The position numbers and the translations under genes are program-made. Below the pieces are notes generated by a model. The model saw only the letters and a program-made list of their open reading frames with translations, ran no database searches and was not told where the DNA came from. Positions 49,207 to 60,280 of a stretch of DNA of 64,000 nucleotides are shown piece after piece. The stretch is from Stylophora pistillata. Taxonomy: Eukaryota. How positions within the stretch are numbered: position 1 is the first letter of the stretch; every line of letters begins with the position of its first letter. The DNA lies in NCBI RefSeq assembly GCF_002571385.2, contig NW_019217798.1, positions 49,046 to 113,045 of the forward strand, written 5' to 3'.

Positions 49207-52200
49207 ATGGCCTTCGACAACAGGAAAGCTCTTTGGCTCACTGCTGGCCTGCTTTCAGGCTTAGGGACGGCTTTCTGTCTCGCTGAATTACGAAAATTTA
49301 TAAGGGAAAAATGTACACGAAAAACACTGTCCCATCTGGAAGATAACATTAAATTAGAGGATCTGGAAATTCTCGTGCGCTCTTCCAACTACTCACTGAG
49401 GAAGAGTGCTGAACAAGTTGTGCTAGATAAAGCAATGAAGAATAATAATCTGGATTTTATCGTAAATGCCTGCTACAGTGATGACGAATTTCAAGTCTTG
49501 AAGGCAGTTGTCGCACTAGCTATGTTGGTAAAAAACTCGGAACGCAACGAAAGAGAGAAGTTGATTGAACACAAAATATTAGCATCGCTCTCTCACTCCC
49601 TCGTTCAATCAGTGCAAGTTGGCTACAGAAGGCTATCCAAGATGGGAGGCTACGATGTTCGTTTGCAAAGATGTGCGTCCGAATCGCTATTTCATCTGAT
49701 ATACGATGAAGAGAGCATTAAACTTCGTCTGGCTCAGTCAAATTCGTCCATTTTCGCTGTTGTTTTGCAGCTGATTTCGGAGGGTAGAAGTAAAGAAGTT
49801 ATGCGGTGGAGTTTGTTTATTGTTCATCAGCTGGCATCGTGTGATTCCTTGCGACCTGAACTGTTAGCCAACGGTGTGATACCAGCTGTCTCGGCGATGC
49901 TTGTGAGAAATCAAGGAGACTTGGTTCTCATGAAGACATGTCTGCACACCATGGTGATGTTTGTGAACAATACTACAGAGGGTGAGATTGCACATCTTAA
50001 GGAGATGGCCAAATATGATGTCTTTAGGACGGCGGTTGTTTCCCTCAGAGCAGGTGAACTATAATTTGTCATATTTGTTTGCAGAGATTAATTTGCACCT
50101 ATGACCTGCACTTACTAGTACTGGTACGTGCATTTGTACAATAATGCTATAATGTTATAATTCTGGTGTTACATTTTACAGTATTGCAACTACATGTACA
50201 GTAATAAAGGCTGATAGTTTCTAAAGAAACTGTTTGGGGCTGCGTCGGTGGGGGGGCCGATTTTCCGTATTTTGACTGGACATAGAAAATTGAAGATTTG
50301 AGCAAATAAAAAATTTTTTGCGCAGAAATACTCAAGAAAATAAGCTTACTTCGTTAAGCGAAAAAAATTTTTTGGGTGTAGGTGCACTTTAAGGCTAATT
50401 GTGGAATGAAAACAAGATCAATCTTTTGACACAATTTTTGATCCAGCTGGAAATCCAAATGCAAATCGAGCAGCAGCTTTAAGGGTGCTCTCCATGGCCA
50501 CTGATGTTATCAAGTCACTTGTTCCACTGGCCTGCAGGCAAGATAACATCTTGATTCGTATGGTGGCAGAACTACTTGGTCTCTTTTGTACTATAGGTAA
50601 GTTCAACTAGAAGTTTAACAGTGAGTTTTCAGGATTTAACCCTATTGTCCAGTCTAACAGAAGTGATTAATGTGAAACTTCTCCCAAAAATATCCATTAA
50701 TATTGCAGTAAACAGGTAATGAGAATACTCAAACTTATCAGGAAGTTGTTATCCTGATATAACGCCAAATTCTCTTGACTAATTAACAAGGAAATGTGTA
50801 GCAGCCAGAGGGGAGATTGAACAATCAGATCTTGGGAGTTCAAGGGTAAAAATGGTAAAATCTCATGTAATATTTATCTTTTTTATATTATCACCAACCA
50901 GAAAGTTTACAAAGCCGAGTCCTAGAGGATGGCTGCCTTAAAGCTGTGCTGGCTTACTCAGTATCAACAGATACTGAACTGCAATTCTGGGCATCAGCTC
51001 TACTTCTGAACATGGCCATGACTTCTGATGATGTCAAGAAAGAAATCATTATGCTGGGAGGATTAAAGCCTCTAATGGAGTTAGCAATTGGGGACAGTGA
51101 TCACCCACAGTGTTCAACACATGCAGCCAAGACTCTCGTCATGTTAGGATTTCTTGGTAAGTGGATTGGATTATAAATGACTAATTACATGGACAGGGCT
51201 GCGTACTGTGATATTGTTTGATTGTACTGACAGATAGAAAAAAAAAATCTTCAGGGATAAATTTTTTTTCTAGAAATCAATCAGCTTTCCCAATTTATTT
51301 CACCACGTGACACTTTTGATATTAAAGGTCTAAAGAGTATCCACAGTACATTTCCTTACATTTTACTTTAGGGTTACAGCCAGACCACAATAATATGTTT
51401 TACTTCAAAAATACAAAATTCTTTCCATCTTCCACACTAAAATGCCTAAAAATGTTGAGGGAAATCAAGACTTTCAAATGGCTTTCAAGGTGGAATATTT
51501 TGAAAATGCATTGTTTCAAATGCTCCTTTCATTCTCAGCTTGTTTTACCTTCAGCTTGTAGCACCTTAAAGAGTGCTACACCGTGCGCTCTGCATATCCA
51601 TATTGTGCGGATCATTCTAGAAATTACGGTTTGCGACGTTTCCTTTTAGACACAGAAATCCCAGTGCGTATTAAGTCACTTGGGTACAGAAATGGTGAGC
51701 GTGTAAGTATTTTAATCAACGGCAAGGAACACTGTCCTAATAAACCTGGTATTAATATTGTGGTGATGGACTTCATGACATTCCAAGTCACTGAGGCTGC
51801 TGCATTCGATACCGGACATGACAAGGAAGCCAGCGACCAACTTGTAGATTTTGTTGATATGATACCAGTTGGTACCTTGGTTTTCATAGCTGTGCGAGGA
51901 GAGGCAGAATATTATATGTCTGGTAAGTTAAATTGTGTTCTCGATACCAGAACAGTTGAATAAGCAGTAAGAAGTCGGCAAATAAAGTAATTAATTTGAG
52001 CTCAAAACATTACAAAACCAAGATGCCCGCTACAGGAAAAAAAAAAAAAAGAGTACCGAAGCCCGCGGTCCTCCGCAGCAAAATCACAGGGCGAAAAAAC
52101 GAGTGGTGTTTGAATGAATCTTTCCTTGAGAAATTGTTGTTTATTTCAGGACGATTCATGTATTGTATACCTGTCAGTTCATAGCCTGTTCCCCCTTCCC

Positions 52201-58200: not shown

Positions 58201-60280
58201 TCAATGACAAATCCAGAAGTGGATTTTAGAGGGATTTCTGTATTCTTTCGTAGTAGTATGCAGGATGTTTGTCACCATGGACTTAGTTAGACGGCCTAGC
58301 TTAGCAGGAGTCTCCTATAGCGCAGTGTTAGAGTACTAATTGGAAGGTCATAGGTTCAGCACCTATTGCGAGCACTCGTAATTCTTTTTCTCCGAGTGTG
58401 GCTCTGTTATTCACTGAGTAACATTATCTTTTACTTAAAAAATAGAATGTTCTTTCTAGAACTACTGGGAAACCTTAAGGGCTTTGTCTTTCTGTTGTAG
58501 TTAAAATTATCAATTCAAAGAAAGCAACTAGTGTTCGAATAACCAATACAGAGAAAAGTGTGATCACTTAATTAAACCGTTGATAAGTGTTTTAATTGGT
58601 ATGCACCGATGATTTACAACAAGCGTTATAAGTTAATTTGTTGGAAAGACAAAAAGGTGCAAGAATGGTCCTTTCATTTCGTGATAATTTCAAAGATTTG
58701 CATTAAAAAAATAAATAAATAAAAATAACGTACCCATAAATCTTCAAATGTACCAGTCCCTTTTTTGTGATTACCTGTAGTTCATAGAAAATCTTGTGCG
58801 CACCGAAGATTAATTATAATAATTCGAATATGATGGGGAAAGTGAGTGATTAAGTGATGATAAAGAAAAAAATTAGGGATGGTACGGTAGAAGGTGGCAA
58901 GAAGGAAAGTGAAGGGGAAAGAGGAAGGGAGAAGGGAATGGAGAAAGAGAAGATAGGAGAAATGGGAAATCGATCGGAGAGAAAGAGAGAGTTCTTTCGG
59001 AGAAAGGGAGGGAGCTAGTATGTGAGGAAGGCTGTGATAGACAGTCGTGAAAGGTTTTCATTTGTTTTCATTTTATTCCCAGCTCAAAGACAATTGATCC
59101 AGTCTTGTAACAAGGAGCCCTCTAGAGCTGTTATGAAAGAGGAACAACCGTCCGTTCTTTCTCTGGAACACAGCGTGGCTGAATCAAATGTGTTGTTTGA
59201 CTACCAGGACACATCCTCTTTGAGCAAATCTTCTCTCGCCTTATCTCCCGAACCTACAAATAATTCTTTAACATTTGTTACACCTTCCTCTGGTGTCTTC
59301 ACCACACCCCAGAGCTCGCCACCCAAAGTATCCGGTCTTGACGTAATTTTTCCTGGAACCGAACCAGAGCCCTCGCCGTATGGAGTGATGTCGACTGGTG
59401 ACGAGACAGCAAACGAAGAAAGACCTCCATTTGAAGAAAAACACGTGACCAGCACTCCATATTTGGGCCTAGGCCCTTTGAGGGACTCTATTGGAAAGCA
59501 CTTTGAAGCGAGGTCGCGCCTTAACGCTTGGCCACAAGAAGCAACCCTGGGAGAGTCCTTCATAGGTAAGGAATGCGTAAACATGATGGAACTCGCTTAT
59601 TCTTTGTTTATAACACTAGAAGACTGATTATGCGGTGAAACTTAATCCTAGCCAGGTATCGAGGCTTAGTAATTTTAGGCGATCTAACCACAGGCTGAAT
59701 CGCAAAACAACGAAGATCCCAGACCTTTTCTCCAGAGTAATTAACCTATGTAGTGCCTTTTTTTTCCTTCTGTTTTTCTGGTTAACATGGTCACTTAAGA
59801 TTTTCGTCTTCCTCAGAGCCCGTTCTGCCTTGTCTGTACTTTGAAGCAGAACTGAAATTCGCTCCATGCCGAGTCAAACAAATGGGTTTCATCAATGTGG
59901 AAACAAGGGAAAAATTTTATTGTGACGTACATGACGGCCATCTTCAGTTTCCGAAGTCGTCCAGTCCCACTCCGCACGCGTACACGTACGAGCAACAAAG
60001 TTTCAGGGTCCCGGATGTTGTGGGCTGTGCAGTAATATTATCGACGGGACAGATCATGTTTACCTTAGATGGAGTAGCAACCGGACAATTTTATGACTTC
60101 CCATCAAGTAAACCATCATCAATGGTCATTGAAAATCTTTTCCCCTATATATCTTGTACGCGAATTCGATGTAATTATGGACAGCGGTCGTTCCTGTTTG
60201 AGGATGCGAATAACAAAGAGTCTCTGGTTATGAGTGGGGCTCTGCTGCATGGATTGGTTGAAGAATACTTAAGGCTGTAG
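49207..60280 (+). CDS. Membrane-anchored ARM-repeat / ILEI (GG-type lectin) / tandem SPRY protein, ~1440 aa, uncharacterised
   Basis: 14 GT-AG exons in frame: 49207-50053, 50447-50596, 50902-51156, 51650-51922, 52443-52604, 53102-53248, 54135-54295, 54644-54890, 55553-55963, 56573-56776, 57094-57421, 57963-58153, 59083-59565, 59817-60280 (4323 nt). Motifs: N-terminal ALWLTAGLLSGLGTAFCL; ARM-like LLANGVIPAV, IIMLGGLKPL; ILEI GINIVVMD..FDT..GTLVFIAVRGEA..WTFCGYK; SPRY1 WYYEVTL..GILQIGW..GVGDD..FDG..FNFGNKPFRY; SPRY2 YFEAEL..DVVGCAV..FTLDG..LFPYIS..NYGQRSF. Confidence 0.85.
50636..50850. mobile_element. piggyBac-like MITE, second copy (intronic)
   Basis: Colinear with 8897-9098 (gaaacttctc, aaacaggtaa, gaggggaga, tcagatcttgggagtt). 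Confidence 0.65.
53955..54110 (-). mobile_element. Truncated SINE fragment
   Basis: gcatgaagcgactaggagt..ctactcc..ccctggacggaatgctagacca resembles a conserved SINE central/3' region recalled from cnidarian SINEs. Confidence 0.5.
55097..55225. repeat. Exact 56-bp tandem duplication followed by (TG)n
   Basis: cggaagtgtcaagtctttccagcggaatcagtacacgtgtcttaatttactttttt at 55097 and 55153. Confidence 0.92.
58300..58432 (+). mobile_element. Degenerate tRNA-derived repeat
   Basis: gagtctcctatagcgcagtgttagag..ggtcataggttc: decayed A and B boxes. Confidence 0.5.

What the first reader, a model, noticed from the sequence alone, without database searches (positions are those of the whole stretch)
49207..60280. 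Unrecognised architecture: TM anchor - ARM - ILEI lectin - ARM - SPRY - low complexity - SPRY
Seen: one in-frame 14-exon model of ~1440 aa. Known: ILEI/GG domains (FAM3, POMGNT1 stem, TMEM2/CEMIP) are normally luminal or extracellular and can bind sugars, while ARM and SPRY are cytosolic. SPRY1 resembles the RSPRY1/RNF123 type, but no RING is visible. Inference: with a single N-terminal anchor all domains face the same side, implying a cytosol-facing lectin on an organelle membrane (ARMC10-like topology). It could sense exposed glycans and act as a ubiquitin-ligase adaptor.
Basis: partly seen in the sequence, partly recalled or inferred. Interest (0 to 1): 0.72.

Follow-up and report, generated by a model that had tools for sequence, protein, structure and literature searches.

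The report
Ancient anchored ARM-SPRY scaffold, ILEI insert
This transcribed coral gene belongs to an unnamed protein family found from chytrid fungi to amphioxus, whose animal members carry an inserted sugar-binding-type domain that lacks the known sugar-binding residues, so it is likely a membrane-anchored, protein-binding scaffold rather than a sugar sensor.

Summary
Real, spliced gene. The 14-exon, 1440-aa model is reproduced and matches one RNA contig exon for exon, ILEI exons included. The assembly lacks 315 coding bases after exon 1, so the protein is about 1545 aa. It belongs to an unnamed opisthokont family (N-terminal anchor, ARM solenoid, SPRY, degenerate SPRY) found in early-diverging fungi, unicellular holozoans, cnidarians, Trichoplax, brachiopod, nemerteans, ambulacrarians and amphioxus. 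The ILEI domain is not a linker between two ARM blocks. It is an animal-only insertion into one solenoid, equal to exons 4+5 with phase-1 introns on both sides; removing it restores gap-free register with unicellular relatives. Its fold matches the POMGnT1 stem (Z 21, 1.6 A), but R129/D179/R207 are P/G/G, and none of 18 animal rows keeps them. The lectin reading is therefore not supported. A cytosolic ILEI has a published precedent in Nematostella alpha-catenin. Best reading: a cytosol-facing, likely mitochondrial-outer-membrane scaffold; any ubiquitin link is inferred only. No paper on the family was found.

The parts
48932..49206 (+). 5' UTR (minimum extent), with short upstream ORFs
   Evidence: RNA contig X2 record 1 starts at 48932; six upstream ATGs, none in the main frame
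49207..50053 (+). Exon 1: start codon, signal anchor, first ARM repeats
   Evidence: 68-69% identical to P0001 and P0002 by tblastn
49228..49284 (+). Predicted N-terminal signal anchor (aa 8-26): moderately hydrophobic, Gly/Ala-rich, followed by basic residues
   Evidence: KD 1.63, WW 0.29, 4 K/R in the next 10 residues; such a segment in 43 of 45 selected members
50203..50396 (.). Junction of two truncated high-copy repeats in intron 1, near 50252; likely place where 315 coding bases (105 aa of ARM) are missing from the assembly
   Evidence: RNA loose ends at 50203 and 50254; 41 of 42 non-self matches begin at 50251-50252; other copies continue further 5'
50447..50596 (+). Exon 2 of the model (ARM)
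50902..51156 (+). Exon 3 (ARM; ends with the helix before the insertion)
51650..51922 (+). Exon 4: first part of the ILEI/GG module (phase 1-1)
   Evidence: Pfam ILEI E 2.8e-13; exactly 273 nt between exons 3 and 5 in RNA contigs of X2 and X6
52443..52604 (+). Exon 5: second part of the ILEI/GG module (phase 1-1)
   Evidence: joint to exon 6 in 11 raw reads and two contigs; fold
53102..53248 (+). Exon 6 (ARM resumes)
54135..54295 (+). Exon 7 (ARM)
54644..54890 (+). Exon 8 (ARM helix, then disordered loop)
   Evidence: joint 54295-54644 in contigs; P0005 is 98.8% identical, ungapped, to model residues 624-1440
55553..55963 (+). Exon 9 (loop, then last ARM-like helices)
56573..56776 (+). Exon 10 (SPRY1, first part)
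57094..57421 (+). Exon 11 (SPRY1 core; most conserved part of the family)
   Evidence: Pfam SPRY E 5.6e-12; invariant columns
57963..58153 (+). Exon 12 (end of SPRY1, acidic stretch)
59083..59565 (+). Exon 13 (Ser/Pro/Thr-rich, poorly conserved linker)
59817..60280 (+). Exon 14 coding part: degenerate SPRY2, C-terminal helix, stop
   Evidence: Pfam SPRY E 1.5e-5, just under the cut-off
60281..61000 (+). 3' UTR (continues beyond 61000)
   Evidence: RNA contig and stranded reads

Best explanation
The gene is spliced and transcribed and encodes a member of an unnamed opisthokont family that likely works as a membrane-tethered, cytosol-facing scaffold, probably on the mitochondrial outer membrane, binding partner proteins through its ARM groove and first SPRY domain, with the animal-only ILEI insertion predicted to act as a non-lectin structural or regulatory module. 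[quoted passage not shown] Predicted by structure model: ILEI fold and one continuous ARM solenoid. Inferred: the segment inserts with the C-terminus in the cytosol; its moderate hydrophobicity and basic flank target mitochondria; conserved Trp/His/Asn/Asp/Lys on the long ARM helices grip an extended peptide while SPRY1 loops read a second motif, holding a client or an enzyme (possibly a ubiquitin ligase) at the organelle surface; the ILEI domain, budding from the solenoid, changes access or adds a protein-binding face, as the ILEI-like insert does in Nematostella alpha-catenin.
For: Anchor-like segment in 43 of 45 selected members against 9% of random internal windows under a similar rule; WW hydrophobicity below 0.4 in 26 of 26, and 3 or more K/R in the next 10 residues in 17 of 18 animal rows, the pattern described for mitochondrial signal anchors (PMC4010795 section 5). 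The anchor predates the ILEI insert. Four internal hydrophobic stretches fall inside ARM or ILEI elements of the model and are more charged across the family. The chytrid model is one solenoid resembling Vac8 and beta-catenin (target TM about 0.6-0.7); in the coral model a designed armadillo aligns 282 of 288 residues across the insert (Z 20.6). Conservation peaks in SPRY1 and at W290, H296, R335, D369, W375, H381, N473, K513 of the ARM, not in ILEI. ILEI residues P/G/G replace R129/D179/R207; TMEM2 domain 2 and C. elegans Fam3L1 lack these residues and are judged or shown not to bind sugar. ARMC10-type proteins are among the Atlas look-alikes of the N-terminal half (0.91, tied with SmgGDS, importin alpha and ARMC8).
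Against: No localisation, partner or phenotype data exist. 0 of 8 non-animal rows have 3 or more basic residues after the anchor, and two chytrid rows have 4 acidic ones; the Capsaspora row has no anchor in its first 45 positions. The hydrophobicity scales were entered from memory and no dedicated topology or signal-peptide predictor was available. An N-x-S/T sequon lies at SPRY1 N1002 or N1004 in 32 of 45 rows. The ILEI domain has been kept at 124-155 aa in all 15 animal rows measured, so it does something, and a non-canonical ligand site is not excluded.
Confidence: 0.5

Rival explanations
1. Substrate receptor for a ubiquitin ligase on a membrane other than mitochondria (ER, endosome, vacuole or lipid droplet), working like yeast Ssh4/Ear1 (recalled) or like a fused GID/CTLH ARM-plus-SPRY module; ILEI incidental.
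For: SPRY1's near neighbours outside the family often sit in ubiquitin machinery: F-box-MATH-ARM-SPRY (P0084, 146 bits), HECT (P0158, 147), UBA-like (P0174, 137), RING-like (P0160, 106); Atlas leads RSPRY1 and RNF123. Fungal anchors lack the basic flank.
Against: No RING in 0 of 85 and PPxY in only 5 of 85, at unrelated places; no BC-box-like column shared by 4 or more of 45; no F-box, SOCS or HECT in Pfam scans of members. The best-scoring outside SPRY of those scanned is in an ankyrin kinase (P0177, 164 bits), and an EF-hand protein also scores 111.
Confidence: 0.22
2. One reading: a cytosol-facing lectin that senses exposed or cytosolic glycans through the ILEI domain, using a new binding site.
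For: The fold is that of the GlcNAc-binding POMGnT1 stem (Z 21.0, rmsd 1.6 A, 138 residues); FAM3A, FAM3C and Fam3L2 bind sugars (PMC9802357); the module is retained across the animal rows.
Against: R129-equivalent is R in 0 of 18 animal rows (K in 2), D179-equivalent is G in 18 of 18, R207-equivalent is R in 0 of 18; only six columns, all hydrophobic or Gly, are shared by 13 or more of 18, so no conserved polar site is evident. ILEI identity to the reference coral row is 12-20% in bilaterian rows against 45-56% for SPRY1.
Confidence: 0.12
3. Type II membrane or secreted protein with everything after the N-terminal segment in the lumen or outside the cell, as in FAM3, POMGnT1 and TMEM2.
For: ILEI hosts are normally luminal; 11 of 13 introns are phase 1 (P about 7e-5 against an assumed 30%), a pattern typical of extracellular modular genes (PMC8001218); sequons at SPRY1; RSPRY1 is called secreted in one abstract (PMC11817781, search listing only).
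Against: Charge bias puts the C-terminal side in the cytosol (+6/-2 after, +2/-1 before); no conserved Cys in the ILEI columns; anchor, ARM and SPRY existed before the insert in fungi and unicellular holozoans; ARM solenoids of the Vac8 and catenin type are cytosolic (established knowledge).
Confidence: 0.07

Closest known systems
ARMC10 / ARMCX1-6
   Same: N-terminal transmembrane anchor plus ARM repeats, on mitochondria (PMC6808451 passages); Atlas look-alike 0.91 for the N-terminal half
   Different: ARMC10 clusters are about 255-297 aa with Pfam Arm_2; this family has 1100-2100 aa with ILEI and two SPRY, and Arm_2 is hit only weakly in one member
Yeast Vac8
   Same: Membrane-bound ARM solenoid that binds several partners in one groove; a top natural structural match (target TM 0.65-0.72)
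   Different: Vac8 is lipid-anchored (recalled) and has no SPRY or ILEI; identity 14-18%
RSPRY1 and RNF123/KPC1
   Same: SPRY1 of similar type (Atlas 0.84 and 0.79, leads only); two databases name family members after RSPRY1
   Different: No RING in 85 members; a second SPRY lies at the C-terminus; long ARM solenoid and anchor
POMGnT1 stem, FAM3A-C, TMEM2/CEMIP GG domains
   Same: Same fold (Z 19-21); TMEM2 also carries such a domain inserted into a solenoid, and a second copy without the sugar residues (PMC10206443)
   Different: The host here is predicted cytosolic; R129/D179/R207 are absent; no catalytic domain
Nematostella alpha-catenin insert
   Same: ILEI-like modules inserted into a cytosolic helical scaffold, where they change conformation and actin binding (PMC4948710); the same insert is in this genome
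   Different: Separate recruitment: those modules score higher to other ILEI paralogues and their middle intron lies elsewhere; two copies, seen so far only in Nematostella and this coral

Membership tests
ILEI/GG (FAM3/POMGnT1-stem) domain | Pfam PF15711 above the curated cut-off | tested here: met
   50.6 bits against 27 for exon 4; 55-56 bits in P0001 and P0002
ILEI/GG (FAM3/POMGnT1-stem) domain | Three-layer beta-beta-alpha fold | tested here: met
   Model of the Oculina orthologue P0037: 5ggj Z 21.0, rmsd 1.6 A, 138 aligned; Foldseek target TM 0.80
Sugar-binding ILEI lectins (POMGnT1 stem type) | Arg129, Asp179, Arg207 | tested here: not met
   Aligned to P, G, G (residues from PMC9802357); R 0 of 18, D 0 of 18, R 0 of 18
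Sugar-binding ILEI lectins (POMGnT1 stem type) | Measured carbohydrate binding | not testable with these tools
   needs a binding assay
Armadillo-repeat proteins | Three-helix repeats forming a superhelix | tested here: met
   Pfam ARM hits mostly below cut-off
ARMC10/ARMCX | N-terminal signal anchor | tested here: met
   by hydropathy and charge only
ARMC10/ARMCX | Arm_2 (PF04826) domain as the whole short cytosolic part | tested here: not met
   No Arm_2 in the coral proteins; one weak hit in P0059; about five times longer
ARMC10/ARMCX | Mitochondrial outer-membrane location | not testable with these tools
   sequence features fit in animal rows, less so in fungal rows
RSPRY1 / RNF123 RING E3 ligases | C-terminal RING finger | tested here: not met
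   0 of 85 by pattern; none by Pfam
RSPRY1 / RNF123 RING E3 ligases | SPRY domain of this subtype | tested here: inconclusive
   Atlas scores under 0.9; no tree with RSPRY1 or RNF123 sequences was built
Ssh4/Ear1-type Nedd4 adaptors or SPSB-type cullin adaptors (features recalled) | Conserved PPxY or SOCS/BC box | tested here: not met
   PPxY in 5 of 85 at unrelated places; no shared BC-box-like column
Class 1-1 exon-shuffled module | Domain bounded by phase-1 introns at both ends, in register with an insert-free ancestor | tested here: met
   Exons 4+5; the exon 3-6 junction aligns without a gap to Chromosphaera, Ichthyophonus and the 'Clim' protein. Intron positions in other animals were not checked

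The most novel reading that the evidence does not exclude
At the origin of animals an extracellular lectin module was shuffled into an ancient mitochondrial-surface ARM-SPRY adaptor and rebuilt into a sensor for a cytosolic ligand (O-GlcNAc, exposed glycans or a protein) that switches client capture or ubiquitination at the organelle: an organelle-surveillance pathway kept in cnidarians, placozoans, some spiralians and invertebrate deuterostomes and missed because it is apparently absent from the standard model organisms.
Probability: 0.12. Interest if true: 0.8.

Novelty: new variant of a known kind. Interest (0 to 1): 0.52.

Why it matters
An uncharacterised family spanning fungi to amphioxus, with a conserved anchor, ARM groove and SPRY surface, points to a piece of organelle cell biology that standard models may have lost; it can be tested in Nematostella, sea urchin, choanoflagellates or chytrids. 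The ILEI insertion is an unusually clean internal domain gain on the animal stem, exact to the codon, and a second case, after cnidarian alpha-catenin, of this extracellular fold serving in the cytosol without its sugar site. Comparing animal proteins with and without exons 4+5, and with insert-free unicellular orthologues, is a direct test of what such a gain does. All parts are known domains and no function is shown, which limits the score.

Tried and rejected
(1) My first model started exon 8 at 54713 (1417 aa); RNA and homologues moved it to 54644. (2) SPRY2 split by the low-complexity region: the 'SFES' stretch is confined to anthozoan rows; dropped. (3) The ARM-SPRY gene as donor of the alpha-catenin ILEI modules: those score higher to L001/L011/L013/L015 and their middle intron is about 4 codons away; rejected. 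(4) Internal TM segments: rejected. (5) NCBIfam gave nothing for 4 members; a profile search with alignment A1 added only P0037. (6) A PDB sequence search with the whole protein was dominated by ryanodine-receptor SPRY domains and gave no orthologue among the 60 of 87 rows shown. (7) Literature: ILEI+SPRY+armadillo, 0 papers; six orthologue identifiers, 0 papers; listings showed no description of the family. Subscription journals and most supplements were not searched. (8) Earlier findings of this scan: none. (9) No complex prediction was run, as no partner is proposed. (10) DNA reads across intron 1 were not examined, so assembly error and a true deletion allele are not told apart; skipping of exons 4+5 could not be assessed because 11 joint rows were hidden.
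Full report
Observation. Fourteen GT-AG exons from 49207 to 60280 join into 1440 codons without an internal stop. Pfam finds ILEI in exon 4 and SPRY in exon 11 over their cut-offs, and SPRY in exon 14 and ARM in exons 1 and 3 below them. The nearest named proteins come from stony corals (Oculina 74% over 577 aa; Acropora 69% over exon 1). Exon 1 has one match in the genome, itself.

RNA. Four runs were laid. A 6063-nt contig of X2 spans exon 1 to the 3' UTR, and its record coordinates leave exactly the lengths of exons 2-14, including 273 nt for ILEI exon 4; X6 gives the same 273 nt. 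Nine of 13 model joints are among the 15 rows shown, 11 rows being hidden. Stranded raw reads fit a + strand transcript at low depth. A Logan protein, P0005, is 98.8% identical and ungapped to model residues 624-1440.

Correction. X2 carries 315 nt between exons 1 and 2 that are not in the window, and the contig lengths of X6 agree (both runs are from one study). P0001 and P0002 have about 104 aa there. This is the best-conserved ARM stretch among animal rows (94% in Acropora, 62% in Nematostella) and is 27-38% identical in the non-animal rows; 25 of 26 rows cover it, the other being N-terminally partial. It was not found in G000 with the P0001 peptide. In intron 1 two high-copy repeats meet at about 50252, both cut short at a shared G-rich stretch. 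I infer a misassembly or a deletion allele there. The real protein is about 1545 aa.

Family. A search with residues 380-1160 of P0002 returned 36 proteins: 33 family-like and 3 matching only by SPRY. A profile search of 1.84 billion representatives listed the best 150. Of 187 proteins then held, 85 score at least 80 bits on my ARM profile and 100 on SPRY1. Names were looked up for 30 proteins; they give chytrids, Blastocladiomycota, Mucoromycota, Zoopagomycota, Ichthyophonus, Chromosphaera, a 'Clim' protein (Corallochytrium, recalled), Capsaspora, Monosiga, Salpingoeca, Trichoplax, anthozoans, jellyfish, Lingula, nemerteans, Ptychodera, echinoderms and amphioxus. All are labelled uncharacterised, hypothetical, by domain only, or after RSPRY1. 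A FastTree tree of 29 rows on 1024 columns filled in 80% of rows (so without the insert, present in 15 of 29) puts the 15 ILEI-bearing rows on one side of a branch with support 100 and broadly follows species phylogeny; Capsaspora is a misplaced long branch. No vertebrate, arthropod, nematode, mollusc, annelid, sponge, ctenophore or Dikarya name appeared, and the hits nearest to animals were all accounted for. Most rows are unnamed, so these losses are likely but not shown.

The insertion. ILEI scores in 21 of the 85 and in none of the other 64; the profile was built from 18 animal rows, which match by construction, but Lingula, not in it, also scores 84 bits. At the site, Ichthyophonus and two chytrids have 30 residues where animals have 134-166. 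The module equals exons 4+5, with phase-1 introns on both sides. Joining exon 3 to exon 6 gives a sequence that aligns without a gap to Chromosphaera, Ichthyophonus and the 'Clim' protein. This fits shuffling of a class 1-1 module, mostly seen in extracellular proteins but also in titin-like intracellular ones (PMC8001218, passages). A caution: 11 of 13 introns in this gene are phase 1, so the two flanking phases alone carry little weight; the exact register carries more.

Structure. The model of the Oculina orthologue (mean pLDDT 72, mostly 82-96 in the insert) matches the POMGnT1 stem at Z 21.0, rmsd 1.6 A over 138 residues, and FAM3A-C at Z 19-20; a designed armadillo aligns 282 of 288 residues over model range 33-597, across the insert (Foldseek agrees). 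The chytrid member folds as one solenoid, SPRY1 and a less confident SPRY2, with Vac8 and beta-catenin among the top natural matches. The window's own protein was not folded.

Lectin test. POMGnT1 binds GlcNAc through R129, D179 and R207, conserved in FAM3 proteins; C. elegans Fam3L1 lacks two of them and did not bind (PMC9802357, passages). TMEM2's second lectin-like domain lacks all three and is judged non-binding (PMC10206443, passages). In the Acropora orthologue these positions are P, G and G (one numbering offset places all three), as in the window's own exons. Across 18 animal rows: R in 0 (K in 2), G in 18, R in 0; the six columns shared by 13 or more rows are hydrophobic or Gly. As a control, this genome has 37 ILEI matches; of 19 other loci fetched, 11 of 13 covering D179 and R207 keep both and 5 of 7 covering R129 keep it (read by eye). 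The canonical site is gone.

Topology. An anchor-like segment starts within the first 30 residues in 43 of 45 members that I chose for looking full-length, against 9% of random internal windows. It is moderately hydrophobic in 26 of 26 and followed by 3 or more K/R in 17 of 18 animal rows but 0 of 8 others. PMC4010795 (section 5) gives these as mitochondrial signal-anchor features and notes that yeast tolerates loss of the basic flank but not acidic residues. ARMCX proteins have this layout (PMC6808451, passages). Against: sequons at SPRY1 in 32 of 45 rows, acidic flanks in two chytrids, and scales entered from memory.

Precedent. The best own-genome matches to exon 4 lie inside an alpha-catenin gene as two tandem two-exon, all-phase-1 ILEI modules. 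Nematostella alpha-catenin has a 362-aa insert with two ILEI-like regions that is a stable subdomain and raises actin binding (PMC4948710, passages). So a cytosolic ILEI is in print, and there it acts on conformation. The two recruitments look independent. PMC10276149 (passages) gave background on GG domains only.

Mechanism. Conservation centres on SPRY1 and on Trp, His, Asn, Asp and Lys residues of the long ARM helices, which line the peptide groove in Vac8, importin alpha and beta-catenin (established knowledge). I therefore favour a membrane-tethered two-site protein adaptor, likely mitochondrial, with ILEI as a non-lectin modifier (0.5). A ubiquitin role is plausible from SPRY1's neighbours, but no ligase or recruiting motif was found; as a non-mitochondrial E3 receptor it gets 0.22. 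Cytosolic lectin 0.12; luminal or secreted 0.07.

Verdict. A real gene of an uncharacterised ancient family, made of known domains in an architecture for which no paper was found, with a clean animal-stem domain insertion. New variant of a known kind; interest 0.52.

Noticed in passing
L027 6611-8686 and L028 (G000:C351, about 124.6-131 kb): An alpha-catenin/vinculin-family gene carries two tandem two-exon ILEI modules, all introns phase 1. PMC4948710 called this insert unique to Nematostella; it is also in this coral.
   Followed up: partly
window about 47100-48724, minus strand: A Saf4/Yju2-family gene (Pfam E 1.4e-7; spliced in RNA) lies head to head with the gene; its transcript and the 5' end at 48932 are about 200 bases apart, suggesting a shared promoter.
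   Followed up: partly
window 63452-63832 +: ORF with a TFIIS/Med26 helical-bundle domain (E 4.5e-12); TCEANC2-like (name recalled).
   Followed up: partly
window 49101-49195 +: Six upstream ATGs in the 5' UTR, including a 23-codon ORF from 49124 in a good context that stops 11 bases before the main ATG.
   Followed up: no
window 49207-60280: 11 of 13 introns are phase 1 (P about 7e-5 against an assumed 30%), odd for a predicted cytosolic protein; unexplained.
   Followed up: partly
L001-L020: The genome holds at least 37 ILEI matches, many in clusters on contigs C104, C74, C15 and C94; a lineage expansion of the module.
   Followed up: partly
P0084 (Soliformovum): An F-box-MATH-ARM-SPRY protein whose SPRY scores 146 bits on the family's SPRY1 profile while its ARM scores only 33; an independent ARM+SPRY pairing with a cullin-recruiting motif.
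   Followed up: partly
window about 55100-55210: A direct repeat of about 55 bases in intron 8, followed by a (TG) run (seen).
   Followed up: no
window about 61300-61650: A run of N just downstream of the 3' UTR; the transcript end could not be placed.
   Followed up: no
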